Positions 40,801-56,049 are shown, numbered from the stretch's first letter. The stretch is DNA of 63,523 nt from a virus (IMGVR_UViG_3300046167_000749:1-63523), one strand, 5' to 3'. Notes: generated from the letters alone by a model not told the origin. Translations and numbers: made by a program.

Positions 40801-43429
40801 GGGAGATATGTTGCCAATGGGTAACTCTTTTGTTGCTACTGCGTTTGAAAGAAGTGGTGGAGATATGTACGCTATGGCTGAATATATTTTCAATCAGCTT
40901 TCAGAAAACACATCGGAGTCAGCACGGGTTCAATGGCAGTATGCCTTCCTGAATCAATTCTTCAAAAGGTTTAGAGAATTAGAAGGTACTGCTAAGAAAA
41001 TATCCAACCAAGTGGATGGTATGCAATCGGGTGATAGCATGAGAAATACACCACAGAGTCTGGATGCACGGGGTGTCGATAATAGACTACCAAAAGAGTT
41101 CTTTTCGTATAATATGTACGATGAAGTTTCATCCAATATTAGGTTGGCACTTATGTCTGCAACCTCTCATTTCGGGAGGAATGGAGATACTGCAAATGCT
41201 GCATTTAGAGATGGCAAACAAACACTAGGCGAAGCGGCTGAGACATTTAATGCAATAATGGCAGAGGCTACTAATAGTGACCACAACAAACCGCAGCACC
41301 ACTACTCTCGATCCGTTAAGCGCAAAGCATATGACATTATGCGAAGGAGAGGCTCAACCAATGCTGAAAAAGAATGGAATGAGCTGTATAGCAAGTCAAT
41401 TGCTAGGGGCGAAATGGATGTAGCTTTTGATCATCTTGGTAAATATTACGGAAAGGGGAATGTGGCGGGACCATATCAAGATGCAAACCTGCTCATGGAT
41501 ATTCTTGGTGTGCAGTCAATGTCTGTATTGAATAACCCTAAGTCATCATTTTTCCAGGCATTATCATTATTCGAGTATCCCAATGCGTTCAGGGGTTTAA
41601 ATAAAATAGCGGGTAAAGCAACAGTAAGTGCTCTTGGTAATTTTGTTGACCAAACATTTGGTGGCATGCTTGAGGCAATGGGTGTTGAGTTAGGCAAAAC
41701 AAGTCGATATGCACAGTACTTAAATGAGACTCACTTTAATCTCAAGGAGATGCAACTTCCCTTCAGTGAGTACAACTCAATGATTGGATCGGGAGGAGAC
41801 CTAGCTGAATCAATTAAGAATCATCCGCAACTAGGGATGAAAAAGTACATTAGGTATATTAAAAATCTCTCAACCCACCACAAGCAGTATAGAAAAGATG
41901 GGACTAGGGCACCTATTGACCCCTTGTCATTGATAACTGGAATCTTTCCGTATGTAAATAATGTGGTGAACCACTCAGTTGGAGTTGGGGCAATACACAC
42001 CTATAGTGACCTAGTGTTACAAGCATCAAAAGTAATACAAGAAAGAGGACTTACTGAGTACACTGAGCTTTCAGCTAAAGATTTAGGCATGGGCAACAAG
42101 ATGGGGGAGTGGATCATTGGTGAAGAAGATGGTTACATAAGAGCGAATGAAATGCTAATTAACTCAGGAGCACCATCAGTATCTCGTTTAGCTTTTGATT
42201 ATTTAGATCGCAAGAAAACAGACAAGCAGGCGCTACCTATTGATGAGAGAATGGGCTTACTGATCAATCAGGCGGCAATGAATAATGTATCGGGTGAGGG
42301 TTTTAACTCTAAGCCATCTGCACTATACACAAATGATTTCCTAAAATACTTCAGCACCTTTTTAGGTTGGCCTCTAGGTAAAATGTCAAGAGACCTAGAC
42401 CAAATCTTTCGTGATCCAAGTGATCGGATCGGAACGATGCGTGCGCTAATGAAGTACATAGGTATGATGTCAGCAGTATATGTTCCGACCGGTCTTTCAT
42501 TTGCAATGCTAATAGATTGGTACGATGAGGAGATGTTAGAAAAGCCTAATAATTTACCTCCTATTTCTCCTTGGGCAGCTCTTCCAGTAATTGGTCCATT
42601 CATCGCGGCTGATGACCCCAACTTCACAGTGTATGCAATCACATCAAGGATGGCTAAAGCAGGTGTACCATTTGGCATGGGTATGGATCTCGCCAATGGG
42701 CTTTTTGCAAAAGGAGACCCCTTCGGTGCGGCTAGAGAGATATCCCTCGATAGTAGGATTTTTGCGTGGTCAATGTTTAAAAATATTTACGATGCCATGG
42801 GAACTTGGGCAACTGCAGGCGAGTTCGATTGGCAAATGGTAGGGAGACCTATCGCCTACGGGGTAGGGGGTAACTCTGTTATACAGATGATGGATCTCAC
42901 GAGTGCTTTATTTGATATAGACTCAGAAGAAAGAAGGGTAGCCAACTACATTGGAATGCGTAATCATATCAAGAAAACTGCATTCTTAATGGGACTTCCA
43001 TTGAGACCCCCCCGTAAAGGTGGGGGAGTGCAGACAGGGGTGTCTATTAATACTAGGCAGATGGCACGCGCCGCGTTTGCTGGAGATAGTGAGTCATTCT
43101 TAGCAAACTACCAAGAAGCATTGGACGCAGCGAAGATATACCTTGATGAAAGAGGTCGCGATGATGACCCTGCGAAGTATGTAGCTGATGCATTTAAAGA
43201 TAGAGCTATTCAAGGCAACATCACTCAAGGAACAATGAAGGATGCTGACTGGCAGAACCTTTTAAATATTCTCGATCCTGAAGTTAAGGGTCAAATTCAA
43301 CAAGCTATTGCTTCTCACGAACACTACTTGAGATTAATTGGTGGCACTCCAAAAGTGTCTCGAGAGAAATCAAATCGTGCAAGGCTAGAAGAGGCACGGC
43401 GATCAAGCGCCCTAATGTATATCCAATAA
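31804..43429 (+). CDS. Giant polyvalent internal virion protein (~3,870 aa if joined at T5 run ~34174-34178) with zincin metallopeptidase-like and Ser/Thr kinase-like domains
   Basis: ORFs 31804-34188 and 34151-43429. N-terminal glycine zippers and EGGTEATQE (ejection-protein motif). ILHEAVHA...DEFFSE zincin. GGSESDIY...VFKRN...HNLLFPTTAYKLEGF...SQPYIKG...DLRPDNAI...IIDP polyvalent-protein kinase. Confidence 0.75.
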
Positions 43430-43430
43430 T

Positions 43431-44339
43431 ATGCCAGTAAAAAAAATACCTCCCGGAACTACTCAAGTAATCGAGAAGAGTAGAAATGTTCACTTCGTAA
43501 AGCACGCCCTTAAATCCACAAAGGAAAAAGATTCCTTTTGGGTTTTATTGAGCTTTGATAGACACCATGATAATCCAAAGTCTAATAATGTAATGGAGAA
43601 AAGACACCTCGAGCAAGCTCGCGAAAGAAATGCTATTATAATAGACGGCGGAGATTTGTTTTGTGCTATGCAGGGGAAGTACGATCCAAGATCATACAAG
43701 GGAGACTTGAAGCCTGAGCATAAGAAAGGTGATTACCTAGATGCGCTAGTGACAACTGCTGCTGATTTTTACGCACCATATGCAGATCTATTTGCAGTCA
43801 TGGCACCAGGAAATCATGAGACAAACATATCCAAAAGACATGAGACAAACTTAACTGAGAGACTTGTTACTATGCTTAACGATAGAACAGGCTCGAAAAT
43901 TAAAGTTGGTGGATTTAGTGGTTGGGTTAAGTTTCAACTCTTAGTTTTTGGACAGTGTATGACAATAAATTTATGGTATCATCATGGTTATGGTGGTGAT
44001 GCTCCCGTGACAAAAGGGGTAATTCAGACTAATAGGCAAGCTGTTTATCTTCCCGACGCTCACATAGTGGCAACTGGTCATACACATAATGAATGGCAGT
44101 TTCCCATACCGAGATTAAGGCTCAGTAACCATGGGAAGGTTTACCATGATGAGCAGTTGCACCTTAAGGTACCCACATATAAGGAGGAGTACAGAGATGG
44201 CTATGGTGGATGGCATATTGAGAGGGGAGGGCCACCGAAGCCAACGGGTGCTATCTGGCTTAGATTTAGTGCAAATAAAACAACCAAGGACGGTGTGAGT
44301 ATTTGCGATCCAATAATTGACGCAATCAGAGCAAAATAG
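43431..44339 (+). CDS. Calcineurin-like metallophosphoesterase
   Basis: DRHHD, GGDLF, GNHE, HHG and GHTH motifs in canonical order. Confidence 0.88.
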   Translation: MPVKKIPPGTTQVIEKSRNVHFVKHALKSTKEKDSFWVLLSFDRHHDNPKSNNVMEKRHLEQARERNAIIIDGGDLFCAMQGKYDPRSYKGDLKPEHKKGDYLDALVTTAADFYAPYADLFAVMAPGNHETNISKRHETNLTERLVTMLNDRTGSKIKVGGFSGWVKFQLLVFGQCMTINLWYHHGYGGDAPVTKGVIQTNRQAVYLPDAHIVATGHTHNEWQFPIPRLRLSNHGKVYHDEQLHLKVPTYKEEYRDGYGGWHIERGGPPKPTGAIWLRFSANKTTKDGVSICDPIIDAIRAK

Positions 44340-44950: not shown

Positions 44951-45155
44951 TTGGACTTGGGAGCAACTCAAGGAGGAGGTTGACCGTGGTCATAAGGAAT
45001 TTTTTGAAAGAAGAGGAATAAACCCAAATCAATTTGATAACGATTTTCTATTTGGAAAGTCTAGTGAAGATAAGTCTCGGTTGTCTTCGTCTGAGAATGA
45101 CCAACCCATTCAGCAATCTTATCGAGAGAAGAATCAAAATCAAGCTTGGTTCTAG
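44943..45155 (+). CDS. Hypothetical protein whose 3' end overlaps the integrase 3' end
   Basis: ATG at 44943 overlaps the previous stop; MGDWTWEQLKEEVDRGHKEFFERRG... Confidence 0.45.
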   Translation: MGDWTWEQLKEEVDRGHKEFFERRGINPNQFDNDFLFGKSSEDKSRLSSSENDQPIQQSYREKNQNQAWF

Positions 45156-46098
45156 TTACAAAGCTATGCCTAAAGCTATGAAAACTCTTATCTTGTATTT
45201 CCATTCGGTCTAAAAATCGTTTAAAATAAACACTAAATCTTGATCGTCTCTTTGGGTCATCTGCGAGTTCCGCCCAATCAGGGAAGCAATATTTTTTATC
45301 TTCAAAATTAATTGTTTTAAACATATCCCTAAGTTTACCTCCGCCAATTATGGGATTGTCTAATGGCAACTTGACTCTCTTATCTTGCTTTTCAGTGTGC
45401 ACGATTAAGTGATCTTCAGTCCAGCTTGCCCACTCTAATTTTGATATATCAATTATTCTTAAACCTGTCCACCAACCGAGATTGATTGCATACTTCATGA
45501 ATCCTTCTGCATGTTTATCTATTTTCACAAAGTCTGCTTTTGTAAATGGCACTCGTGTCTTGGTTTCCTTTTGCTTGTGGGATAACTTGGAACCATCGAC
45601 TGCTACCCCAGCGGTTGGGTCTTTCATGATGTAGCTACTTGCTACAGCGTAAGAGAATAAAGTCCGAAGGGCAGCAAGTCGTTGCTTCCTTGCATTAAGT
45701 GATACGGAGTCGTCAGGTTCATTAATCCATTTTGACACAATCTTTGGAGTTACACTAGATATATGCTTGATCCTCATTTTGTCAGCAAATGCACAATGTA
45801 ACCCACTTTGTGTATATATTGTATTATGGGATCTTGATCTAACTTTACTATAACCAACCCATTCATTGACACAATTTTGGAAAAGAATATTTTTGTCAGC
45901 CACAATGGACACTATAGCATCCTTAGTTAAGGCGTTTATTTTGGCAGCCATTTCAAGCTCTTCAATCTTTGCCTCTTTGACAATCATGATTGCTTCTTTC
46001 TTACTGCCTGTAGCTAGGTTGCGGGTAATTGTTTTACCCGATTGTGTTTTAAATCTAACTGAATAGATTCCTGTCTTTTCACTTTGTATCAATTTCAT
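45061..46098 (-). CDS. int: Tyrosine recombinase / phage integrase
   Basis: TGLRIIDI (R), KQDK (K), HSFRH (HxxR), GHS...TETY (H, Y); N-terminal arm-binding-like and core-binding regions. Confidence 0.92.
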   Translation of the reverse strand: MKLIQSEKTGIYSVRFKTQSGKTITRNLATGSKKEAIMIVKEAKIEELEMAAKINALTKDAIVSIVADKNILFQNCVNEWVGYSKVRSRSHNTIYTQSGLHCAFADKMRIKHISSVTPKIVSKWINEPDDSVSLNARKQRLAALRTLFSYAVASSYIMKDPTAGVAVDGSKLSHKQKETKTRVPFTKADFVKIDKHAEGFMKYAINLGWWTGLRIIDISKLEWASWTEDHLIVHTEKQDKRVKLPLDNPIIGGGKLRDMFKTINFEDKKYCFPDWAELADDPKRRSRFSVYFKRFLDRMEIQDKSFHSFRHSFVTRTKLDFDSSLDKIAEWVGHSQTKTTETYLH

Positions 46099-46823: not shown

Positions 46824-47289
46824 CTTCGTCCTCTTCCAAGTCTATGCCTAATGTGTCTGCCATATCCTGCAGTTGGTATTGTAATTCTTGGCAATTATGG
46901 AAGTATTTCTTTGCATAATTAATCAGCTTCCTTTGATGTGACTCGCTATACTCATCCCGAAGTTTGTCGTAGATTTCAAAGGAGTTGTAGTTACCATTCC
47001 AATGTTCGACCTCTCTTCTGATCGCAATGTCATCTGGATCCATAGACTCAGGTTCTTCAACCGAGTGTGAGCTATTATCTTCCTTAACTATGACATCTTT
47101 AACTCCAAGCTTTACACCAAGTCTTGTCTCTGCAATGCGTGCAGGAAAAGTCTTAGGGGTTTTCATGATTTTCTGAAAACTTAGGTGGTCATCCAGTTGA
47201 TCCATAACTTTGTCTGCTGTCAGTTTGTTTGGTGCGTTGAAGTGGACATCATATGTCCGTGTTACTTTTGTTTTTATATTATATTTCAT
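46816..47289 (-). CDS. Hypothetical protein
   Basis: 157-aa ORF in the operon. Confidence 0.65.
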   Translation of the reverse strand: MKYNIKTKVTRTYDVHFNAPNKLTADKVMDQLDDHLSFQKIMKTPKTFPARIAETRLGVKLGVKDVIVKEDNSSHSVEEPESMDPDDIAIRREVEHWNGNYNSFEIYDKLRDEYSESHQRKLINYAKKYFHNCQELQYQLQDMADTLGIDLEEDEDE

Positions 47290-47310
47290 GTTACTATTAT
47301 TTATGTGTTA

Positions 47311-48192
47311 CTAAGCTGCTTTGGGTTTCTTAACCTTGTATATTATTTTGGGATACCTGCCTTGACTGTCCGCTATGGGTGGAATGAAGACATCCTCTCC
47401 TTGCTTATTTACGAAGTAGTCGCTACGCAGTGTGCGAAGGTGACCCACTCTTCCATTCTTTAATGGACCGGTTTTCTTGTGACCCTTCTTCTCTTGGTAT
47501 TCTCTAATCTTTTTAGGCAGATATACAACCCTGTATAAAGACTTACTTGTCTTGATTTTGTATTTCTTTTTTGCACTCTTTAGTGCTTTTTTGTCCCATA
47601 CATTAATTTTTGTTGGAGCGAAGTATGGAATCGCTGAATAATTTATAACCTTCAATGCCATTAGTAGTGCATCCATGAATTGATTAGTCATGATATCTTG
47701 CTGTCGACTAGTTTTGTAATCATTAAGTTGCGAGTCCACGAAGGTAGTCATACCTTCTCGGATTTGATCTTCACCGCACTCACTAGGTATGTTGCCAAAG
47801 CATAAGCCAAGAGGTGTCTCCATGGTATACATAATTACATCACTCATCCATTGCGGTATTCCATTTTCGTCGGGCCCCCATTCAACGGCAAGTGTAGCTA
47901 GGTACTCTTTAGCAAGGTCATCTTGCATAGCATGAGCGTAGTTCCATGCAGTTTGAACTATATCAGCACAGTTACCTCTACTTATCGTTAGGTTGTAGTA
48001 ATACTTGCACTCAAATCGTATATTCAAACTTTTGCTTGGCCATTTAGTTTGATCGAAATTATTCGATACATGGCATGCGCTTAAAGCTTCGGTTACACTT
48101 TTATCAACAAGCATTGTTTGTCCGTATATTTCATGCCAGCTTTTGTTTGCTATACCGATAGCAGATGAACATTTCCTTACTATATCACTCAT
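47311..48192 (-). CDS. Hypothetical phage protein with C-terminal RxGHLR...VFIPP motif
   Basis: RVGHLRTLRSDYF...VFIPPI, a motif type recurrent in phage early proteins. Confidence 0.65.
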   Translation of the reverse strand: MSDIVRKCSSAIGIANKSWHEIYGQTMLVDKSVTEALSACHVSNNFDQTKWPSKSLNIRFECKYYYNLTISRGNCADIVQTAWNYAHAMQDDLAKEYLATLAVEWGPDENGIPQWMSDVIMYTMETPLGLCFGNIPSECGEDQIREGMTTFVDSQLNDYKTSRQQDIMTNQFMDALLMALKVINYSAIPYFAPTKINVWDKKALKSAKKKYKIKTSKSLYRVVYLPKKIREYQEKKGHKKTGPLKNGRVGHLRTLRSDYFVNKQGEDVFIPPIADSQGRYPKIIYKVKKPKAA

Positions 48193-48204
48193 ATTATTCC
48201 CTAT

Positions 48205-50865
48205 CTATATTGTTAAGTCTTCCATTTCTGACAGTAATTCACTTACTGCATCTTGATCGTGCTTTGTAATTCCAAGCTCCTCGGTGCGCGTGATAGTTAA
48301 GAACCTCTCCTTGAGCGGTGCCCACTGTGCGAGAACCTCAGCTTCATGCGACTCGATGCCCTTCTCTAGCTTATCCCATCCGGTGACATGCTCGGCAAGA
48401 ACCTCCATCGCATCAGTTGATCTTACCTCACGAGGTACTCGCTTACCATGAAGGCAGATAGTGGCAGCATCTTCCTTGGTTCCAACCTTATCGAACATCA
48501 ACTCTTCGATGCTGTTCTTGTGAAGAACGACATATACATTGACATCCTCTGGTGAATTGAGTCGGAATACACGACCCAGTGCTTGGTTGAACTTGCCGTA
48601 AGACCATTCGAGTGAGCCTACGATAAGGTTCTTGCATTGCTCAAATGAATAGGCTTGAGCACAATTGATACTGAATAGCATAACTTGTGTCTTACCGTCC
48701 TTGAACTTAGATGCCTCAAGAGCGTGATCGGACATAGTGCCATCAATCCTACTGTATTTAACGCCCCCCTCGGCAAGTCTTTCCTGTAACTCATTGGTCA
48801 TACCTTGACGAGCAGACACATGGATTACTTGTTCACCCTTAGCTAAGTGCTTGTACATGATCTCAAGTATTGCAACAGTCTTAGGGTTGAAGTTAGTCTT
48901 GCTGTGCAGATTGTACTCAGCATCGAATGGATTAGCTGCGATACCACGAAGGTATGATAACTGAATACCATAACGAAACTTAGGATCTTTGCATGGTACA
49001 TTGCCAGGGTTCATGTAGTGGGTGTAGTTCTCGCGTTGCTGGTATGTCATCGGCACACGAATGTCCATGATGTTGGACTTCACGAGATCAGGGTTGCATT
49101 GAGCCTTACTGATGAAGGCAACGGTAGGACGAAGCAACTTGAGTAGCTTTGCTGGCTGACTGATCACAGGTGAATGCTTGAGTGATGTGGGACCACGACC
49201 ACCATTCTTTCTCTTGATCATCTCTAGGGTGAGGTCACGCTCATTGGTAACAAACTCACGCTTGAAGTCAGCAATCTCATCACGCTTGTACGGCCAACGA
49301 GGGTTGCAACGATCACCGAAGTACCAATTAGGCACAGATAACCAACCCATAAGGGAGAAGATATTCCATACCATATTTGGTATCGGTGTAGCACTAAGAG
49401 CAAACTTGTACTTAGGTTGCATCTTGATGATCGAGTTGGTGATCTGAGAGTCAAGATTACAGATAAGATGAGCCTCATCGAGGATTACCATATCCCAAAA
49501 CTTGTGACCAATCTCGGTAGCCAAGCATGGCTCAGATATACATGTGATTGCGTGCTTCTCACCTGTTGGTGCACCTTTGTCTCTGATGTCAATGACTTGA
49601 GTGTGACCAATATTCATGTGGTAGCATTCGTTATCTCTCGTATGCTTGAGGGTATTGCCATTAGCATCAAGCAACTCATTGCCCTCGGCATCGAGTTGCT
49701 TGGTGTATAAGTCAGGCACAGGAATCTTGATCTGCTTGAGATGCTTGCGATACAATGCTTCAGGGTCTTTCTTCTTGCCTGCCCATGTATTGGGTAGACG
49801 CTCAAAGCCGTTGCGAAACATGACATGATCATAGGTAAGGAATACACCGAATGGTAACTCACCATTGTTCTCCTTGAGTAACTTCTCGTGATCCTTCCTG
49901 CCGAATATCTTGTGAACAGGAATAGTAGGTGCAAACTTCTTGAACTCCTTGACCCATTGGGATGGGCTAGTTGCTTCGCCTGCCTTGGTCTTACCATCCT
50001 TGACTGTACCCTTGGGAGCACAGATCAGAACACGACTGCACTGCTTAAGTAGCACCAAGCATATGGCGATAAGAGTTTTGCCCACACCCGTCTCGGCTGC
50101 GATCTGAGCAGACTCAGCACATGCAGCTTGTGCGATATACTCATTCTGACCGGGATAGAACTTGAACTTGCCTTGCACCTCCATGAACTTAAGTACCTTG
50201 AGTGCTCGCTCGAACTGATCTTTTGTCTCATCAGCTAGTGTAGGGATATCGGGTTCAGCGAAGTACTCCCATAGTAATGACTCGTCAAGGTCAGTCTGAA
50301 GGGTAGGGTGATCCCTGAAGTTGAGAGTCCAACCCCTGTCATCTTGGAATGTTAACGCCAAGTCAGAACCTTCGAGTGACATCTGATGCACCTTGGATGA
50401 CACGGATCGCGAATCCTCATCGTAGTGCATTTTAGTACGAGTGAATGGCTCGCGGTACTGCATCCTGCGAGAGCGGAAAGCATATCGCTCACCAGATGTA
50501 AGCTGAAGGTGAACAGGATCTCCATTCTTGGTGTGACTAACTACATCATCTACATTTTTAATGCAGATCAATTCCTTACGCTCATCTACATAAGCTACTT
50601 TCTCGTAGGATGTAGGTGGACGCAATGGACGTGCAATTTTCTTGGATGAAACAAGAGCAGTATCAATTAATTCCTTGGCATCGGGTGAGATGAGGCACTT
50701 CTTGTGTGATACTAATTTCTGAAGTCTTTGGCGGTCGCTAAGAGAGATGACCAAGCTCATGGGTGTGCGAGCATCAACCAACTCAAGATCGAGCTTAATG
50801 TCGGAAGGTGCGTATTCAGGAAAGGTGCGGAGTTTACCGTCCCTCTCGGATATGTCGTACATCAT
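48205..50865 (-). CDS. SNF2-family (SF2) helicase/translocase
   Basis: AAETGVGKT (I), ILDEAH (II), LSATP (III), RIDG, QALGRVFRL (VI), SIEE. Confidence 0.9.
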   Translation of the reverse strand: MMYDISERDGKLRTFPEYAPSDIKLDLELVDARTPMSLVISLSDRQRLQKLVSHKKCLISPDAKELIDTALVSSKKIARPLRPPTSYEKVAYVDERKELICIKNVDDVVSHTKNGDPVHLQLTSGERYAFRSRRMQYREPFTRTKMHYDEDSRSVSSKVHQMSLEGSDLALTFQDDRGWTLNFRDHPTLQTDLDESLLWEYFAEPDIPTLADETKDQFERALKVLKFMEVQGKFKFYPGQNEYIAQAACAESAQIAAETGVGKTLIAICLVLLKQCSRVLICAPKGTVKDGKTKAGEATSPSQWVKEFKKFAPTIPVHKIFGRKDHEKLLKENNGELPFGVFLTYDHVMFRNGFERLPNTWAGKKKDPEALYRKHLKQIKIPVPDLYTKQLDAEGNELLDANGNTLKHTRDNECYHMNIGHTQVIDIRDKGAPTGEKHAITCISEPCLATEIGHKFWDMVILDEAHLICNLDSQITNSIIKMQPKYKFALSATPIPNMVWNIFSLMGWLSVPNWYFGDRCNPRWPYKRDEIADFKREFVTNERDLTLEMIKRKNGGRGPTSLKHSPVISQPAKLLKLLRPTVAFISKAQCNPDLVKSNIMDIRVPMTYQQRENYTHYMNPGNVPCKDPKFRYGIQLSYLRGIAANPFDAEYNLHSKTNFNPKTVAILEIMYKHLAKGEQVIHVSARQGMTNELQERLAEGGVKYSRIDGTMSDHALEASKFKDGKTQVMLFSINCAQAYSFEQCKNLIVGSLEWSYGKFNQALGRVFRLNSPEDVNVYVVLHKNSIEELMFDKVGTKEDAATICLHGKRVPREVRSTDAMEVLAEHVTGWDKLEKGIESHEAEVLAQWAPLKERFLTITRTEELGITKHDQDAVSELLSEMEDLTI

Positions 50866-51023
50866 TATTTATATTGTATTTTAATTATTATTGCTTCTAT
50901 TCCTTTTGTTATTAAATGAGCTACTGCTTTGGTAGCGTCATTGTGTGTGTATAGTAATGTCTCTTGTGTAGAGGTATCGCATAAGCAATATCCCATACTA
51001 GAGACAAGGTATCGTGTGGTCAT
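50865..51023 (-). CDS. Small hypothetical protein (52 aa; not in ORF track)
   Basis: MTTRYLVSSMGYCLCDTST...IQYK; coupled at both ends (ATGA/TAATG). Confidence 0.45.
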   Translation of the reverse strand: MTTRYLVSSMGYCLCDTSTQETLLYTHNDATKAVAHLITKGIEAIIIKIQYK

Positions 51024-51352
51024 AAATATCTAAAAAAGTCTTTGATGTGCTTACTAATGTGGCGCCCACTCCAAGGGCTCTTACCTTGCTTTAGGTGCTT
51101 AATGAAATCTCGAATAAGTGCAGCTTGCTCGTAATCTTCATACTTAATTGCTTTCTGCATACCTTTCTCGTAGCGGTTGACTTCAGCGGCTTGGGACTTA
51201 CGTTTCCACTCATCCATATACTCCTTTAGTGTCATGCCTTTGAGTGAAGCTAAGTATGTGAAGTGTTTATTGTTTGCTTCTACGAGTCTCTTGCGTGACT
51301 TAATTGGATCGTATCCTTGACTTGGCATAATTATATTTTTACCGGGTTGCAT
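51020..51352 (-). CDS. UVR (UvrB/UvrC-motif) coiled-coil protein
   Basis: MQKAIKYEDYEQAALIRDFIKHL matches the UVR motif consensus. Confidence 0.7.
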   Translation of the reverse strand: MQPGKNIIMPSQGYDPIKSRKRLVEANNKHFTYLASLKGMTLKEYMDEWKRKSQAAEVNRYEKGMQKAIKYEDYEQAALIRDFIKHLKQGKSPWSGRHISKHIKDFFRYL

Positions 51353-52005
51353 ATTCCTTCATCTGTATCAAAGAATACGCCCCGAACCTTTAGGCTCTCC
51401 CACCTCAGCAGGCGCCAAATAAGGTTCAGGGCGTTTATAGCAACCACACTATTAACAAATAGATCTTGCACGAAGTATTCATCTACGCATCCAACCTCAC
51501 CTACCGGTTCCTCTCCGTAGATCAAGTCGTTGTGCTCGTCATATACATTAGGTAAGTCTCCGTCGAATTGACCGATCAAGACTTGTCCTGATGTGCGTGA
51601 ATTGCCACAATCAATCATGTAGGCTCCCTTAGTAAGCCATGACTTAGCTATATCTTCACGAGACTTAATAGTATCTACGCACGAAACAATCATATCATCT
51701 TTTGATGATGAAGGTGCTTTTACTGTGCGATACTTCCAGTTTAGTTGGTAGTACGCATTTACTCTATCGATCAGAATCTTGGCTTTATTGTGGCCAACAT
51801 CTGATGGGAAGAATGCCTGCCTGCCAATATTAGCAGGAGATACCGTGTCAAAGTCATAAGCTGTGACATATATCTCAGGCTTCCTTCTTTGTTTTTGAGC
51901 ATGATTAATACGGGCAAGTCCATTAATCATCTGACTGCCTGTACCACCACACCCATATACGGATATGTTTCTTATATTTTTCTTTAATCTATGCATTGTA
52001 TCCAT
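51331..52005 (-). CDS. PRTRC system ThiF/E1-like activating enzyme
   Basis: GCGGTGSQ, LARINHA, DFDTVSPANIGRQ.F..SDVG.NKA, SCVD, DCGN..SGQV, and C...QDLFVN. Confidence 0.9.
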   Translation of the reverse strand: MDTMHRLKKNIRNISVYGCGGTGSQMINGLARINHAQKQRRKPEIYVTAYDFDTVSPANIGRQAFFPSDVGHNKAKILIDRVNAYYQLNWKYRTVKAPSSSKDDMIVSCVDTIKSREDIAKSWLTKGAYMIDCGNSRTSGQVLIGQFDGDLPNVYDEHNDLIYGEEPVGEVGCVDEYFVQDLFVNSVVAINALNLIWRLLRWESLKVRGVFFDTDEGICNPVKI

Positions 52006-52607
52006 TCTGTAAGTGTTTTGTTAATTTCCTTAAGGTGGTTGCGCCTCTTGGGTTGGTAGTTAAATCCGCTATTGAAGAATGTTCTCTCCCACTCCTCCCA
52101 ACAATGCCAGGGAAGTGAGTATGCGAACTCAGGATTGTTTAGTGTTACATTGCATGATCCCATTGCAGATGAACCTCCATGCACATCAATACTTCGATAG
52201 GGCAACTCTAGTAGCTTTGTTGAATCTGCGGAGTATGAATCAGTATTCGACCGATCAAAGTCAATCGGCAGGACAGCAACACTAAGCGTGTCATGCCCGT
52301 GACTTCTTGTTACTTTGAATACTAGATGTGGATGACTGTAAACCCCTACCTTATTCTTAACTTTAATTGGTCGTCGAGCGGGTTTGCATGTCCATATCAT
52401 GCACAAGTTTTCTTCATACCATAGCATCTGTGGTGGCAAGACTATCGGTTCTGATGCTTGCCCTTCTACTAGATCCTTCATATCTTCAGATGATAATGGT
52501 CGTGGGTTTACCCATTCCTCATCTTTCTTATCGAATAGTACGCACATCGATCTACTTCTATCTCGGTAAACCATTATGCTTTGCTTCGCTTCAATTAAGT
52601 CTGTCAT
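51984..52607 (-). CDS. PRTRC system protein B (prokaryotic E2 family D-like)
   Basis: PRPLS; LPPQMLW...MIW..KPARRPI; PHLVFKV; TKL..LPY; AMGS; WERTFFNSGF; adjacent to ThiF. Confidence 0.75.
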   Translation of the reverse strand: MTDLIEAKQSIMVYRDRSRSMCVLFDKKDEEWVNPRPLSSEDMKDLVEGQASEPIVLPPQMLWYEENLCMIWTCKPARRPIKVKNKVGVYSHPHLVFKVTRSHGHDTLSVAVLPIDFDRSNTDSYSADSTKLLELPYRSIDVHGGSSAMGSCNVTLNNPEFAYSLPWHCWEEWERTFFNSGFNYQPKRRNHLKEINKTLTEWIQCID

Positions 52608-53541
52608 GTGATAAGTATTTTAATAGTCTCGCGAACGGTCCAACTGAGTACAGAGTGTCCTCAATTTCCGTCGCGTTGTGACATGGAGGTATACAGGTTG
52701 AGTATAAGTGTTCCTGTTGGTAGATAATCATGTCATCCAGCACCATCCATGTTGGATCTGATGCTTGACCCATGTCGGGATTACCCTCAAGTACCTCGAG
52801 CCTGTGTTGCGCATCGTATTGCTGTTGGCACACGAACATCTCCATTGTCTTGTTGAGCATAGGCTCAAACCCATACCAAGAGCATGTTGCGATTGGCCAA
52901 TACCCAACCTCTTCACCTTCAGATGTAGCAGCAAGAAAGCTTTGAGATAAAGCTCGCGGTAGGCAGTCCTCGATTAGTTTAGATAGGTTGTAGGGTAAAC
53001 CTTTTGGAACCTCGCTGAACACTTTATGTTTATGTGCAAAGCTAGGAAGTAGACCAGTGCGTCGTTTCTTTTTATCTTTATCACCAACCCTGCCTAGGTG
53101 TTCATACATATCGACTAGATACTCATCGATATATTCAGGTGTCATTATCCATGCCGGACTACGTGACAATAGATCGATTAGCTCGGAGCCTATGCCGTGG
53201 TACTTTTCGAGTAGCTCTAGTCGAGGACCAATTGCAAACTGACTTCCATCATTAAACGTATTGGCTACAGGTATAATACTGCCATCATATAATTGAGCAT
53301 CTTCAATTAGCACACTGAATATTCCATCAGTATAAGATTTAAACAGATCGGTTAGTCTCTGATCTTTTACGCAATTATTTGTGTTCTCATATCGTAGGCC
53401 AGTGTCGCGTACAACTTTGATAGACTGAGGTAATGCCCATGGTGTTTCTAAAACAGGGGTGGGCAGGCACGGGGAGTAAACCTCCCCGTACCTTTTGTTT
53501 GTTTCAGCCTTAACCCTATTTGGGATGAGAATTTCAAGCAT
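52591..53541 (-). CDS. PRTRC system protein F-like
   Basis: Lies between Ubl and B; IGPRLELLEK..G.G...L...WIMTP pattern. Confidence 0.55.
   Translation of the reverse strand: MLEILIPNRVKAETNKRYGEVYSPCLPTPVLETPWALPQSIKVVRDTGLRYENTNNCVKDQRLTDLFKSYTDGIFSVLIEDAQLYDGSIIPVANTFNDGSQFAIGPRLELLEKYHGIGSELIDLLSRSPAWIMTPEYIDEYLVDMYEHLGRVGDKDKKKRRTGLLPSFAHKHKVFSEVPKGLPYNLSKLIEDCLPRALSQSFLAATSEGEEVGYWPIATCSWYGFEPMLNKTMEMFVCQQQYDAQHRLEVLEGNPDMGQASDPTWMVLDDMIIYQQEHLYSTCIPPCHNATEIEDTLYSVGPFARLLKYLSHDRLN
53466..53492. terminator. Strong hairpin just downstream of the Ubl gene
   Basis: Minus strand GGTACGGGGAG-GTTTA-CTCCCCGTGCC (11 bp with one GU); T-rich tail on the + side. Confidence 0.4.
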
Positions 53542-53547
53542 CTTCCC

Positions 53548-53760
53548 TTAACCTTTAGTACCGTATGATCCTTCGATTTTATAGACTTCTTCACCTTTGG
53601 ATATTGTCGGGCTAGAGATTTCTCCCTTGGTTAGTGATGGATACTGTCGTGAGTAATGCCTTACCACCTCTTCAGGTGTCATGTTCCTCCCTGGATCTTC
53701 AAGTGTTCGTTCGCCGAATTTGAATATTCTAGGTAATGGTTTCATTCCTTCATCTGTCAT
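53548..53760 (-). CDS. PRTRC system protein C (prokaryotic ubiquitin-like protein)
   Basis: RIFKFG..LEDP...MTPEEVV.HYS.QYPSL...ending GTKG-stop. Confidence 0.88.
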   Translation of the reverse strand: MTDEGMKPLPRIFKFGERTLEDPGRNMTPEEVVRHYSRQYPSLTKGEISSPTISKGEEVYKIEGSYGTKG

Positions 53761-54056
53761 TAATTAAACTCCTTTTCTACTGATTGTTGTAATGCTTCTT
53801 GTTCGTGTGACTCTAATTTATCCCACCAATGGGGAACTTTATCCGTATTGGATGGATTGAGTCTTTGCTCAGGATACTCAACCGTGCCATTTGTGCCGTC
53901 TCCACCCACTGGTGTGGGACTGGTGGATTCATTTACAAAAGCCCATAGCTTTGAGTATAGTGATCGATGTTGTGTATCCGTAAGGAATTGCTTGTAAGGT
54001 AAGCATTCAGCTACCTCATCAGCCGTCCAACGTGATATTCTTTCTGGATAACTCAT
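53760..54056 (-). CDS. Hypothetical protein inserted in the PRTRC operon
   Basis: 98-aa ORF, TAATG-coupled to the Ubl gene. Confidence 0.65.
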   Translation of the reverse strand: MSYPERISRWTADEVAECLPYKQFLTDTQHRSLYSKLWAFVNESTSPTPVGGDGTNGTVEYPEQRLNPSNTDKVPHWWDKLESHEQEALQQSVEKEFN

Positions 54057-54285
54057 GTTTTCTCCTTTGTTTCTTTTGTCGATTGCGCATTAATTTAAGC
54101 ACGATGAGTGATTCCTCATTGGTCATACGATTGCGTAGGTGCGTTGGTATGTCCGTGATAGTTAGAACTCCTCGTAGGCTAGTCGGGCATTGATCTAATA
54201 GATCAACGACCTCGTAACCCAAAGAGATTATGTCTCCAATCTTCATTGGCTCACCGCCAGTGAATCCCGTCGTTGTGTTACTCAC
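54019..54285 (-). CDS. Hypothetical protein inserted in the PRTRC operon
   Basis: 88-aa ORF overlapping both neighbours. Confidence 0.55.
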   Translation of the reverse strand: MSNTTTGFTGGEPMKIGDIISLGYEVVDLLDQCPTSLRGVLTITDIPTHLRNRMTNEESLIVLKLMRNRQKKQRRKHELSRKNITLDG

Positions 54286-54866
54286 AGATCAATGCTACCT
54301 AGTCCTAACCCTAGTGGATCATCGCCGTCAGGTTTATCTTCTGCTGATTTCTCATTCAGCCTGTCGACAATCTTAGGTTGCTTGGTGACATTTGATACAT
54401 CAGGGGTGATTTCAGTATCAAGTCGATTAGCTTCCTCTGCGGGTGGCTTCTCATCCTTGCGTTCCTCGGCTTGCTTGGCACGAGCAGCTTCACGCTTCTC
54501 GGCTTCAAGTTGTGCTTTAGTCTTACGCTTCGGAGCAGGCTTCTTGCCTGTAGCTTTCGCCTTGAGTTCCTTGGTCAAAGCATCAGACTCGAGCTTCATC
54601 TGTTTGGCAATATTCACCATACTCGTTGTACCCTCAGACATGACATGTACATACAAGAGTATATCCTTAACAACTTTCTCGTTAGTAAGGTTATCCTTAT
54701 TGTATCTTTGCATGTATCGCTGTTCGAGCACACCCTTGGTTTTATCAGACACCTTGGTATCCGCATTGTACTCAGGGAATACATAAACCCATATGTCATC
54801 ACCATCTAGCTCTAGGTCTAGCTTGAGTTTGTGTGTAGCAAGTAGTGGAATCAGTTGTTCAATCAT
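54282..54866 (-). CDS. PRTRC system protein E-like
   Basis: MIEQLIPLL...LKLDL..DGDDIWVYVFP head followed by an A/K/P-rich low-complexity tail; upstream of C. Confidence 0.65.
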   Translation of the reverse strand: MIEQLIPLLATHKLKLDLELDGDDIWVYVFPEYNADTKVSDKTKGVLEQRYMQRYNKDNLTNEKVVKDILLYVHVMSEGTTSMVNIAKQMKLESDALTKELKAKATGKKPAPKRKTKAQLEAEKREAARAKQAEERKDEKPPAEEANRLDTEITPDVSNVTKQPKIVDRLNEKSAEDKPDGDDPLGLGLGSIDL

Positions 54867-55578
54867 TTTTAATTTCTTTTAGTTTCTTATCAATAGTGTC
54901 GTTGACTGCCTTACCCATATTACTGAGTGCAGTGTGCATACCCTTGAGTGCCATAGTTAGCTTCTCGATCTTAGCCTCAGCATTGCTTTTGAACTCGATA
55001 AGCTCGTCGATCTTTTCCTGCAGATCGTTATCGGTAGCAGGACCGACAACGGATCGGGCAATATCCTCGATCGCCTCACGCATCTTAACTATTGGATGAA
55101 CTTCATCCGTGGCAGGCTTAGGCTTAGTGAGAGGCTTGCGAGGCTTGCTCTCTTTCTTGACGATTGCAACACCTTCGGGGTCAGGCTTAGGGGTAGGGGC
55201 AGGTGGTATATTTGGCGTTGGGTCTTGCTCTATGCGAGAAGGCTCAGATGGAGCTGACTCGGCAGGAACTTGATCGAACTCACCATCTTGCAATCGCTTT
55301 ATCCATGCCTCGTATTGCGAGCTTTTGAGATCAAGAAAGAACTTCTTGCGCTCGTCGGGGTCACGAGGTGGATCACCTTTCCATAGTGGATTGGAAGAAC
55401 CATCTGCAAGTGTAGACTTGTTGTATTGTTCGCCTGTCTCATCGCCAACATAGAATGCAATATGAAGGAGCGAAGGGCTCAGTGCTTTGAGTGCTTGATC
55501 TGTGAATCGTGCTTGTACTCCTTGTCCGAACTTAGTGTTACGATCGGTGAGTACTTCCTGTAGTTTTATTTCGTTCAT
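54859..55578 (-). CDS. Hypothetical protein (P-rich linker, C-terminal coiled coil)
   Basis: 239-aa coupled ORF. Confidence 0.65.
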   Translation of the reverse strand: MNEIKLQEVLTDRNTKFGQGVQARFTDQALKALSPSLLHIAFYVGDETGEQYNKSTLADGSSNPLWKGDPPRDPDERKKFFLDLKSSQYEAWIKRLQDGEFDQVPAESAPSEPSRIEQDPTPNIPPAPTPKPDPEGVAIVKKESKPRKPLTKPKPATDEVHPIVKMREAIEDIARSVVGPATDNDLQEKIDELIEFKSNAEAKIEKLTMALKGMHTALSNMGKAVNDTIDKKLKEIKND

Positions 55579-55871
55579 TATTTAGTATAGAATTTTATTA
55601 ATGGTTTAAGTTTTCCTTTGTGTACTTTGTATGCTTGCACCAATCTTTTCCTTTCGACTATTGCCTCCGCGCCAGGTCCTGGATTATCGTGTTCAATGCG
55701 TTGCCTTACATATTCGTCATGGTTTAATTCATCGTTTGATTTTGGTTGGATTGGTATGTTATCTTTTGATCCTCTCATAGAGTCCTTTATCATGTGCTCG
55801 AAGTAAGTGTAATCATCGCTCATCCTCAATAAACTCCTTGAGCTCGGATTTTTTAAATTTAGTAAGTACAT
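55578..55871 (-). CDS. Hypothetical protein
   Basis: ORF coupled to 54859-55578; the start may be the internal Met near 55823. Confidence 0.5.
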   Translation of the reverse strand: MYLLNLKNPSSRSLLRMSDDYTYFEHMIKDSMRGSKDNIPIQPKSNDELNHDEYVRQRIEHDNPGPGAEAIVERKRLVQAYKVHKGKLKPLIKFYTK

Positions 55872-56049
55872 CCTTCATGTATTCCCTATACTCTTCGATT
55901 GAGCCTCGATCGTGGTTAGAGTAACCAAACGATGGGCCACCATCAGTCATACAATCCACGGCTCCATTTTCCTCCCATAAGTTGTAATTAGATAGAGTCC
56001 AATCCTTACGGATTTCTATTAGCTTTTTGATTAATTTACTTTTCTTCAT
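55813..56049 (-). CDS. Hypothetical protein
   Basis: 78-aa ORF. Confidence 0.55.
   Translation of the reverse strand: MKKSKLIKKLIEIRKDWTLSNYNLWEENGAVDCMTDGGPSFGYSNHDRGSIEEYREYMKDVLTKFKKSELKEFIEDER

What the first reader, a model, noticed from the sequence alone, without database searches (positions are those of the whole stretch)
51020..51352. UVR-motif protein coupled to the E1 gene: possible ClpC adaptor for the Ubl tag
The ORF overlapping the ThiF stop carries MQKAIKYEDYEQAALIRDFIKHL, a UVR coiled-coil motif. The same motif forms the ClpC middle domain and occurs in McsA and UvrB/C, where it mediates head-to-head contacts. Inference: the phage may link Ubl tagging to host ClpC(P) proteolysis, a proteasome-like route, or the protein may inhibit ClpC or UvrBC.
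Basis: partly seen in the sequence, partly recalled or inferred. Interest (0 to 1): 0.72.

Follow-up and report, generated by a model that had tools for sequence, protein, structure and literature searches.

The report
Accessory phage protein with UVR hairpin
A small phage gene next to a ubiquitin-like tagging cassette really does carry a UVR pairing motif, but most related phages with that cassette lack it, so it looks like an optional add-on and not part of the tagging machinery.

Summary
The ORF at 51020-51352(-) is more likely 102 aa, starting at 51328. It matches Pfam UVR above the curated cut-off (26.4 vs 21.5 bits), as do 6 of 6 family members.

It follows the PRTRC ThiF/E1 gene in a tightly packed minus-strand gene array of an uncultured phage record (63.5 kb, CheckV completeness 81%).

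The proposed coupling to the Ubl system is not supported:
- No UVR match or family relative in 0 of 24 viral records with a PRTRC-type ThiF, nor a UVR match in 0 of 2 cultured PRTRC phages.
- In the 9 syntenic relatives the ThiF|helicase junction is empty or holds unrelated genes.
- The family is small: 22 sequences in 6 clusters. It is found only in this phage clade and is patchy even among near-identical ThiF backgrounds.
- Synonymous divergence is lower than in the neighbouring ThiF (dS 0.36 vs 1.38).

Best reading: a mobile accessory gene whose product pairs through its UVR hairpin, with itself or with a host UVR protein. The target is unknown, the host is unknown, and ClpC binding is untested.

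The scan had noted similar phage PRTRC cassettes on other DNA, but not this gene.

The parts
51020..51328 (-). CDS of the 102-aa UVR-hairpin protein (preferred start). An in-frame upstream ATG at 51352 would give 110 aa.
   Evidence: ORF. 102-aa form in the protein collection and homologues. dN/dS 0.37 against L001. AF2 model with three helices 8-29, 34-62, 66-81, mean pLDDT 76.6.
51086..51184 (-). UVR motif (helix-loop-helix hairpin), the invariant core of the family
   Evidence: PF02151 at 26.4-26.6 bits, over the 21.5 cut-off. 6 of 6 members match. Superposes on the UvrB C-terminal hairpin 2nmv_B (rmsd 0.8 over 38 residues, 37% identity, Z 4.7) and on McsA 8wtb_B (rmsd 0.7 over 40).
51331..52005 (-). 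PRTRC ThiF-family E1, upstream neighbour
   Evidence: TIGR03736 at 177.5 bits against cut-off 144.75. PF00899.
51984..52607 (-). E2-like protein (Prok-E2_D; PRTRC_B below its cut-off)
   Evidence: PF14460 at 33.7 bits against cut-off 25. TIGR03737 at 25.7 bits against cut-off 131.
52591..53541 (-). 316-aa protein in the position that PRTRC_F holds in Ralstonia phage Dina; no family match
   Evidence: No hit. Gene order of Dina. Conserved in L005-L013.
53548..53760 (-). Ubiquitin-like protein (Prok_Ub / PRTRC_C) ending in ...GTKG
   Evidence: PF14454 at 59 bits. TIGR03738 at 45.8 bits, just under its 45.95 cut-off. C-terminal Gly in the window and in 9 of 10 relatives read.
50865..51023 (-). 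52-aa protein (p52), downstream neighbour; its start overlaps the UVR stop (ATGA)
   Evidence: ORF. Homologues lie directly before the helicase in L005, L006, L007 and at the cut end of L001.
48205..50865 (-). SNF2-family helicase, the conserved flank on the other side of the variable junction
   Evidence: PF00176, PF00271. phrog_62. 34-63% identity in L005-L013.

Best explanation
SHOWN. This is a real, expressed-looking gene for a roughly 102-aa all-helical protein. Its only recognisable and most conserved element is one UVR helix-loop-helix hairpin, flanked by an N-terminal helical hairpin (conserved YLASLKGMTLKEY..W) and an invariant C-terminal tail (HIKDFYRY). The gene is optional cargo at a variable junction between two conserved modules of an uncultured phage clade: the protease-less PRTRC cassette (E?-Ubl-p316-E2-ThiF) and p52-SNF2 helicase. 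It is not a component of the PRTRC system.

INFERRED. The gene moves or is lost quickly within the clade. It probably acts the way UVR hairpins act elsewhere, by antiparallel hairpin-to-hairpin pairing through the conserved aromatic and AAxxRD face. It may pair with itself, or act as a free-standing decoy or plug on a host protein that carries a UVR hairpin.

My rough split:
- Accessory gene, not part of the PRTRC core: 0.8.
- Works through UVR-UVR pairing: 0.55.
- The partner is a host UVR protein: 0.3-0.35. UvrB/UvrC is somewhat more likely than ClpC/McsA. UvrB and UvrC are present in nearly all bacteria (my recall; the UVR family itself rang in 13 of 14 control genomes), and the matches listed are to C-terminal hairpins of the UvrB and McsA type, with no NCBIfam ClpC model listed.
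For: Gene and motif:
- establish the ORF and the UVR match.
- Purifying selection: dN/dS 0.37 over 101 codons against L001.

Small, clade-restricted family:
- 5 clusters at 90% identity.
- In 1.84 billion representatives, only 2 proteins reach E<=1e-10 and 8 reach E<=1e-3; the weak 6 share only UVR-like stretches.
- 22 member sequences in 6 clusters.
- No match in 50,697 phage records, in 72,556 plasmids, in PHROGs, or in IMG/VR by three pattern scans.

Accessory status:
- 0 of 24 ThiF-bearing viral records match Pfam UVR or the family profile. 8 of those 24 are at least 90% complete. The profile finds the window at 180 bits.
- 0 of 2 cultured PRTRC phages match UVR.
- In the syntenic loci L005-L013 the ThiF|p52-SNF2 junction varies: empty in L005; a 66-aa ORF in L008-L010; ThiF runs straight into the helicase in L011-L012, as it does by tblastn in L013; 2.5 kb and 1.9 kb of unrelated genes without Pfam matches in L006 and L007.

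Patchiness among close kin (inferred from equal contig lengths):
- UVR members and ThiF members share 11 contig lengths.
- ThiF-bearing contigs of 81,515, 80,835, 79,240, 78,352 and 78,258 bases have no UVR member. Two of them carry ThiF nearly identical to UVR-positive ones (P0180 vs P0190, P0022 vs P0203).
- On the ThiF tree the UVR-positive label needs at least 5 changes.

Mobility:
- Between the window and L001, synonymous divergence is 0.36 in the UVR gene and 1.38 in the adjacent ThiF.
- Nucleotide identity is about 0.75-0.97 across the UVR gene and about 0.67-0.85 across ThiF.

Pairing mode:
- The HMM alignment to the UvrB C-terminal hairpin puts the family's Y-E-Q-A-A-L-I-R-D on UvrB's F-E-R-A-A-E-L-R-D.
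- UVR hairpins form dimers through conserved hydrophobic residues, including an ultra-conserved aromatic (PMC13273187, passages).
- The McsA coiled-coil domain helps reassemble the McsAB oligomer (PMC11046695, abstract).
- Only one UVR motif is present in the phage record, so no second phage-encoded UVR partner is visible.
Against: - No binding of any kind was shown here.
- The host is unknown, so no host target could be examined.
- Every place where the gene's context can be seen is directly after ThiF. A specific role with the E1 in the phages that carry the gene is therefore not excluded.
- The record is about 81% complete, so a second UVR protein could lie in the missing part.
- The low synonymous divergence could also reflect constraint on the nucleotide sequence. 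No Rfam family matched at E<=0.1.
- The N-terminal half and the conserved C-terminal tail have no assigned role and may carry the real function.
- The AF2 model rests on 6 sequences. Fold searches gave nothing specific: no Foldseek match at E<=0.001, and best VIA-align Z 6.3, in the range the tool calls common for helical proteins.
Confidence: 0.45

Rival explanations
1. One reading: the protein is an adaptor of the phage Ubl system. It binds the Ubl tag or the E1 with one part and the host ClpC middle domain with its UVR hairpin, so that tagged proteins are delivered to ClpCP.
For: The gene abuts the E1 gene wherever its context is visible, and it co-occurs with this ThiF clade on 11 contigs by equal contig length. 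There is precedent for UVR proteins around ClpC: several plant UVR-domain proteins are enriched in CLPC1 traps, and CLPF and CLPC1/2 carry UVR domains (PMC8889267, passages). A phage-encoded ClpC adaptor-like protein exists, SPO1 Gp53 (PMC6873191, abstract).
Against: 0 of 24 ThiF-bearing viral records have it or any UVR match, and 0 of 2 cultured PRTRC phages have a UVR match. The same cassette therefore works without it in most relatives, including near-identical ThiF backgrounds (inferred). No PRTRC model matches it. No ClpC model was listed at E<=0.1. No MecA-like or other adaptor family appears in Pfam at E<=1. The host, and so the presence of ClpC, is unknown.
Confidence: 0.05
2. A phage-internal factor: a UVR-mediated homodimer that serves the phage's own replication or regulation module. 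It might partner p52/SNF2 helicase, or act as a small DNA-binding regulator whose N-terminal helices contact DNA. It would have no host UVR target.
For: The gene sits in one tightly packed minus-strand array with the helicase and shares ATGA with p52. No terminator-like site on that strand lies between about 55930 and 50503. UVR hairpins are generic dimerisation modules. Two weak viral fold rows are ribbon-helix-helix proteins: Arc-like at rank 4 and ParG at rank 20, both with E>2.
Against: p52 and SNF2 are conserved in relatives that lack the gene. Pfam shows no DNA-binding family for the N-terminal half, only coiled-coil noise below cut-offs. The fold rows are far from significant.
Confidence: 0.25
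3. A decaying or functionless hitch-hiker: a fragment of a cellular UVR gene (UvrB or McsA C-terminus) captured at a recombination hot spot.
For: The strongest matches are to C-terminal hairpins of McsA and UvrB. Two McsA-like 172-aa proteins in MAG contigs share 40-43% identity over residues 44-85. Distribution is patchy.
Against: The full length is conserved across 6 clusters, including non-UVR parts: Y25, A27, G31, E36, Y37, K44 and the IKD..Y tail are invariant in A3. The frame is intact in all 22 members. dN/dS is 0.37.
Confidence: 0.05

Closest known systems
C-terminal UVR domain of UvrB (and the homologous domain of UvrC), Pfam PF02151
   Same: Same motif, above the Pfam cut-off. The predicted hairpin superposes on UvrB 2nmv_B at rmsd 0.8 over 38 residues with 37% identity. 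The aromatic-E-x-A-A-x-x-R-D face is kept. The hairpin lies near the C-terminus, as in UvrB.
   Different: No helicase or nuclease body: TIGR00631 scores 19.1 bits against a cut-off of 750. It is free-standing at 102 aa, with an unrelated N-terminal helical hairpin and a conserved HIKDFYRY tail. It is phage-encoded.
McsA, activator of protein-arginine kinase McsB (NF053706); its coiled-coil (UVR) domain
   Same: Best NCBIfam match, to model positions 138-174 of 182. One source labels the relative P0004 as McsA. The McsA coiled-coil domain contributes to oligomer assembly (PMC11046695, abstract).
   Different: 24.2 and 22.8 bits against a cut-off of 210. The two zinc-binding domains that bind McsB are absent, and the protein has no cysteine (sequence). 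The McsA label on P0004 rests on the motif alone.
ClpC middle domain and UVR-bearing ClpC partners (plant CLPF, EXE1/2, UVR2-4)
   Same: All carry UVR hairpins. Weak Foldseek rows to S. aureus ClpC resting-state structures appear at E 3.5-9.7. Plant UVR proteins are enriched in CLPC1 traps (PMC8889267).
   Different: No NCBIfam ClpC model was listed at E<=0.1. In PDB only ClpE appears, at 13.2 bits and E 0.8. No AAA+ module and no second domain such as YccV or DUF151. Binding is untested and the host is unknown.
SPO1 Gp53, a phage-encoded adaptor-like modulator of B. subtilis ClpCP
   Same: A precedent that a small phage protein can dock on ClpC and retune proteolysis (PMC6873191, abstract).
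   Different: No sequence relation was found: tblastn against the phage collection found nothing. Whether Gp53 has a UVR motif I did not check.
PRTRC system (NCBIfam TIGR03734-03742), as annotated in Ralstonia phage Dina
   Same: The gene lies at the 3' edge of a PRTRC-type cassette.
   Different: It matches no PRTRC model. Dina and BgVeeders33 have no UVR match. In Dina the gene after ThiF is an unrelated 292-aa hypothetical.

Membership tests
UVR domain (Pfam PF02151) | Score at or above the Pfam gathering cut-off | tested here: met
   26.4 bits against 21.5, E 5.3e-6. 6 of 6 family members match, best E 1.8e-8.
UVR domain (Pfam PF02151) | Antiparallel helix-loop-helix hairpin | tested here: met
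   In the AF2 model the end of helix 34-62 and helix 66-81 form the hairpin, with pLDDT 81-86 in these blocks. rmsd 0.8 over 38 residues to UvrB 2nmv_B and 0.7 over 40 to McsA 8wtb_B. This is a prediction, not a solved structure.
UVR domain (Pfam PF02151) | Conserved interface residues (loop aromatic, A-A, R-D) | tested here: met
   Y66, A70, R73 and D74 are invariant in A3 and A69 is invariant in A1. They align to F-E-R-A-A-E-L-R-D of UvrB. The role of these residues is taken from PMC13273187.
UVR domain (Pfam PF02151) | Hairpin-to-hairpin pairing with a second UVR domain | not tested
   No homodimer or host-partner prediction was run. The one complex job went to ThiF + Ubl + UVR (see Tried and rejected).
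McsA (NF053706) | Full-length match over the curated cut-off of 210 bits | tested here: not met
   24.2 bits and 22.8 bits over positions 139-174 only.
McsA (NF053706) | Two zinc-coordinating domains that bind McsB | tested here: not met
   No cysteine in the 102-aa sequence. The domain roles are taken from PMC11046695.
PRTRC system component | Match to one of the PRTRC models (TIGR03734-03742) | tested here: not met
   The NCBIfam scan of the protein at E<=0.1 lists only McsA, UvrB and UvrC models.
PRTRC system component | Conserved co-occurrence with PRTRC ThiF/Ubl genes across loci | tested here: not met
   0 of 24 viral records and 0 of 2 cultured phages. It is present only in a sub-branch of one phage clade.
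ClpC adaptor (MecA, CLPF or Gp53 type) | Binds ClpC and changes its ATPase or substrate choice | not testable with these tools
   The host is unknown, so no host ClpC sequence is at hand. This needs a biochemical assay.
ClpC adaptor (MecA, CLPF or Gp53 type) | Sequence or fold relation to a known adaptor family | tested here: inconclusive
   No adaptor family in Pfam at E<=1. Fold searches show only weak rows to ClpC middle domains themselves.

The most novel reading that the evidence does not exclude
The protein is a viral free-standing UVR-hairpin decoy. By copying the pairing face that cells use for the UvrB-to-UvrC hand-over, or in hosts that have them for ClpC/McsA assemblies, it plugs that interface during infection and switches off nucleotide excision repair or retunes ClpC proteolysis. 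In searches of open-access papers and preprints I found no phage UVR-domain protein described.
Probability: 0.25. Interest if true: 0.62.

Novelty: new member of a known kind. Interest (0 to 1): 0.3.

Why it matters
The PRTRC cassette is a widespread ubiquitin-like system. In the listing of the one search I ran (45 papers hold the term, 25 listed by title and abstract start), no title was a functional study of it. Knowing which neighbouring genes belong to it matters for anyone who tries to reconstitute it. This gene should be left out of the core set. In its own right it is a small, fast-moving phage gene built around a pairing module that cells use in DNA repair and in regulated proteolysis. 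That makes it a reasonable but unproven candidate for a host-takeover factor. If it blocks UvrB-UvrC or ClpC it would be a compact natural inhibitor of a conserved bacterial interface.

Tried and rejected
- Complex prediction of ThiF + Ubl + UVR protein (alignments A2, A4, A3; partner = UVR protein) returned 'no answer', score 0.00 in both runs, controls not folded. This counts neither for nor against binding.
- Fold searches of the AF2 model gave nothing specific. Foldseek PDB and BFVD had no row at E<=0.001. VIA-align over 48,161 chains had best Z 6.3, to a designed binder.
- ESM Atlas: best score 0.78, below the level the tool calls a lead.
- The N-terminal half alone gave only sub-threshold coiled-coil families in Pfam. 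My idea of a ribbon-helix-helix fold got no support beyond two weak BFVD rows.
- PADLOC: one weak row, Unk_05 at E 0.0014 and 16.6 bits. Not pursued.
- Rfam over 50000-52500: no match at E<=0.1.
- Promoter and terminator scans: counts at or below shuffled expectation.
- The last word-indexed search, restricted to residues 42-90, returned only the family itself.
Other family-bearing contigs could therefore not be read.
- Host identification failed. No tRNA. No cultured relative by helicase tblastn or megablast. MAG labels on ThiF relatives (Opitutae, Flavobacteriaceae) are binning labels, and I did not treat them as host evidence.
- Supplementary files of papers were not consulted.

Full report
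**What is there.**
The window is a virus record of 63,523 bases that CheckV rates 81% complete. GC is about 41% and no tRNA was found. Neither megablast of 47000-56000 nor tblastn with the helicase found a cultured relative.

On the minus strand between about 46.8 and 55.6 kb lies a tightly packed gene array:

| Coordinates | Product | Evidence |
|---|---|---|
| 54859-55578 | p239 | ORF only |
| 54282-54866 | weak PRTRC_E-like protein | E 0.076 |
| 53760-54056 | 98-aa protein | ORF only |
| 53548-53760 | Ubl | PF14454, 59 bits |
| 52591-53541 | 316-aa protein, no family | |
| 51984-52607 | E2-like protein | PF14460 |
| 51331-52005 | PRTRC ThiF | TIGR03736, 177.5 bits vs cut-off 144.75 |
| 51020-51352 | the ORF in question | |
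| 50865-51023 | 52-aa protein (p52) | ORF only |
| 48205-50865 | SNF2 helicase | |

Ralstonia phage Dina is annotated E-C-F-B-A-ThiF. Compared with that order, the JAB-type PRTRC_A gene is missing here: E2 and ThiF overlap.

**The observation.**
- The ORF carries the quoted motif. Pfam UVR matches at 26.4 bits against a cut-off of 21.5.
- The six-frame search places the match at 51086-51184 and finds only this one UVR match in the record.
- All 6 of 6 aligned family members match, and the motif is the invariant core of the family.
- The likelier start is the ATG at 51328, giving 102 aa, 2 nt after the ThiF stop. This is the form in the protein collection. Homologues from five other clusters start near it with unrelated N-terminal residues.
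- The upstream ATG lies inside the conserved last codons of ThiF.
- Start/stop overlaps are the rule along this array (coordinates). The overlap with ThiF therefore says nothing specific.

**The protein.**
- AF2 on the 6-sequence alignment gives mean pLDDT 76.6 and three helices: 8-29, 34-62 and 66-81. The C-terminal 20 residues have low confidence.
- The UVR hairpin is the end of helix 2 plus helix 3. It superposes on the UvrB C-terminal hairpin (2nmv_B, rmsd 0.8 over 38 residues, 37% identity) and on the McsA coiled-coil domain (8wtb_B, rmsd 0.7 over 40).
- No fold row is otherwise specific.
- NCBIfam lists only motif-level matches: McsA 24.2 bits (cut-off 210), UvrB 19.1 and 18.6, UvrC 13.8 and 12.2.
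- The PDB profile search lists UvrB at 17.4, McsA at 14.3 and ClpE at 13.2 bits, all with E>0.04.
- The protein has no cysteine, so it lacks McsA's zinc domains. The 'McsA' label that one source gives to relative P0004 rests on the motif alone.
- Outside the motif, two further elements are conserved: a YLASLKGMTLKEY..W..K stretch at the helix 1/2 turn, and an IKD(F/I)(Y/F)RY tail. Neither matches a family.

**How wide the family is.**
- Five clusters at 90% identity.
- In the library of 1.84 billion representatives, read at all lengths, only P0002 and one distant 104-aa protein (P0006, E 2.4e-14) reach E<=1e-10.
- The other six hits at E<=1e-3 are unrelated proteins that share UVR-like stretches. 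I therefore see no fused form.
- The six clusters hold 22 sequences, on contigs of up to 81 kb.
- Nothing was found in the 50,697 phage records, the 72,556 plasmids, PHROGs or IMG/VR by three scans.

**Linkage to the E1/Ubl genes.**
I took 26 of the 120 ThiF hits (the closer, short-form ones) as alignment A2. With it I fetched 24 viral loci.
- Pfam UVR matches 0 of 24 of the records behind them.
- The family profile A3 also matches 0 of 24, while finding the window itself at 180.5 bits.
- 8 of the 24 records are at least 90% complete.
- The two cultured PRTRC phages I looked at, BgVeeders33 and Dina, have no UVR match (0 of 2).

tblastn with twelve window proteins shows that L005-L013 keep Ubl, p316, ThiF and the SNF2 helicase. 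These are nine loci; L009/L010 and L011/L012 are near-identical pairs. The E2 matched in 8 of the 9 (no tblastn match in L013), and p239 and the E-like protein matched in only some.

The stretch between ThiF and the helicase differs among them:

| Locus | Content of the ThiF-helicase junction |
|---|---|
| L005 | nothing extra: ThiF, then p52, then helicase |
| L008-L010 | one 66-aa ORF |
| L011-L012, and L013 by tblastn | ThiF runs straight into the helicase |
| L006 | about 2.5 kb of other genes, none with a Pfam match |
| L007 | about 1.9 kb of other genes, none with a Pfam match |
| window and L001 | the UVR gene |

The junction is therefore a variable slot between two conserved modules.

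**Distribution among closer relatives.**
- The member tables give, for each sequence, the length of its longest contig.
- Eleven UVR members share that length with a ThiF member of the ten closest ThiF clusters: 63,523; 26,976; 25,028; 36,711; 14,597; 2,374; 1,419; 18,426; 12,484; 81,156; 76,550.
- With L001 seen directly, 12 of the 22 UVR sequences lie on a ThiF-bearing contig.
- The other ten are nine contigs of at most 2.6 kb and one of 69,026 bases whose ThiF I did not find among the clusters looked up.
- The 1.4-kb and 2.4-kb contigs leave no room for anything but adjacency.
- Conversely, ThiF-bearing contigs of 81,515, 80,835, 79,240, 78,352 and 78,258 bases have no UVR member of that length or longer, apart from the single 81,156 contig.

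I built a ThiF tree of 40 rows. It held 10 UVR-positive rows, 12 negative (7 read from loci, 5 inferred), 16 unknown and 2 outgroups. I left out L010, L012, the truncated P0200, P0150 (the window's own ThiF from a later start) and most of the distant hits.
- 9 of the 10 positives fall in one 13-row branch.
- The label needs at least 5 changes.
- Two positives have near-identical ThiF partners inferred negative: P0203 with P0022, and P0190 with P0180.

**Mobility.**
- Between the window and L001, Nei-Gojobori estimates over aligned codons give pS 0.28, dS 0.36, dN 0.13 for the UVR gene (101 codons).
- For the adjacent ThiF (224 codons) they give pS 0.63, dS 1.38, dN 0.15.
- Sliding nucleotide identity is about 0.67-0.85 in ThiF and 0.75-0.97 in the UVR gene, highest over the motif.
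- The simplest reading is that the UVR gene was exchanged between these lineages after their ThiF genes diverged. Nucleotide-level constraint is an alternative, although no Rfam family matches.
- In the other direction, P0006 is only 40% identical to the window protein. The ThiF cluster of its presumed contig partner P0167 is represented by a sequence 74% identical to the window's ThiF. The protein can therefore also evolve fast outside the motif.

**How it most likely works.**

Shown:
- It is a real gene under purifying selection.
- It carries a UVR hairpin with the pairing face intact.
- It is optional cargo at a variable junction and is not a PRTRC component.

From the literature:
- UVR hairpins pair with other UVR hairpins through a conserved hydrophobic face (PMC13273187, passages).
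- That paper's reference list gives Moolenaar 1995 and Sohi 2000 for the role of the UvrB C-terminal region in UvrC binding. I saw these only as titles.
- The McsA coiled-coil domain helps reassemble the McsAB oligomer (PMC11046695, abstract and passages).
- Plant UVR proteins are enriched in CLPC1 traps (PMC8889267, passages).
- The head-to-head contacts of ClpC middle domains in the resting state I know from recall. PDB titles of S. aureus ClpC resting states appear.

Inferred:
- The protein acts by UVR pairing, either as a homodimer or as a plug on a host UVR protein.
- I rank UvrB/UvrC slightly above ClpC/McsA. UvrB and UvrC are present in nearly all bacteria (recall), whereas the full McsA model passed its cut-off in only 1 of 14 control genomes. 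The listed matches are also to C-terminal hairpins rather than to ClpC.
- None of this was tested for binding.

**Comparison and novelty.**
- The protein is a member of the UVR-domain kind and not of McsA, UvrB, UvrC, the PRTRC families or any known adaptor family (see the membership table).
- I found no description of a phage UVR-domain protein. The search for 'UVR domain' + 'phage' found 2 papers, neither about a phage protein. A second search with four UVR and bacteriophage terms found 10 papers, none on this by title or abstract start.
- SPO1 Gp53 is a precedent for phage modulation of ClpC (PMC6873191, abstract).
- Earlier notes of this scan describe protease-less PRTRC cassettes in similar 73-80 kb phages on other DNA. 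None of the eight notes shown mentions a UVR gene.

**Verdict.**
What remains is an uncharacterised accessory phage protein with a plausible but untested decoy mechanism. Interest is modest.

Noticed in passing
window 51331-54866 (-): The PRTRC-type cassette lacks a JAB/PRTRC_A gene (E2 and ThiF overlap) and no ParB was seen nearby. The Ubl already ends in ...GTKG in the window and in 9 of 10 relatives read; L014 ends in GTKA. No processing protease would therefore be needed. The E2-like protein reaches only 25.7 bits on PRTRC_B (cut-off 131) but passes Pfam Prok-E2_D.
   Followed up: partly
L006:1739-4260 and L007:6668-8546: In two related phages the same ThiF|p52 junction holds about 2.5 kb and 1.9 kb of other small genes. 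The first, of 229 and 208 aa, look related to each other by eye. The eight I scanned have no Pfam match. The slot may be a hot spot for accessory or anti-host genes.
   Followed up: partly
window 50865-51023 (-) and L005:6669-6836: A 52-55-aa protein beginning M(T/I)TRYLVS.MG.CLC..(S/D)TQE sits directly before the SNF2 helicase in the window, L005, L006 and L007. No family match.
   Followed up: no
window 34151-43429 (+): An ORF of 3092 aa with no PHROG match at E<=1e-4. It follows a run of tail-fibre-like genes.
   Followed up: no
window 45061-46098 (-) and 43431-44339 (+): A tyrosine-integrase-like protein (phrog_1, E 8e-35) and a DNA-repair-exonuclease-like protein (phrog_7339) lie between the structural and the replication arms. 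The phage may be temperate, which could help to find its host.
   Followed up: no
window 51020-52005 vs L001:43-1064: Synonymous divergence is about four times lower in the UVR gene than in the adjoining ThiF between the same two genomes (dS 0.36 vs 1.38). This is a sign of recent exchange of the small gene, or of constraint on its nucleotide sequence.
   Followed up: partly
P0004 / P0142 (protein collection): One source names 87-93-aa members of this family 'protein-arginine kinase activator protein McsA'. They share only the UVR motif with McsA and lack its zinc domains, so this is an over-annotation.
   Followed up: yes
L029:7626-8144 and L030:7626-8144: Two nearly identical 172-aa McsA-like proteins (CxxC pairs plus a C-terminal UVR motif AIKDENYEQAALLRDEIKQL) lie on MAG contigs labelled as an archaeon and as Bifidobacteriaceae. 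Identical genes under such different labels suggest a binning problem.
   Followed up: no
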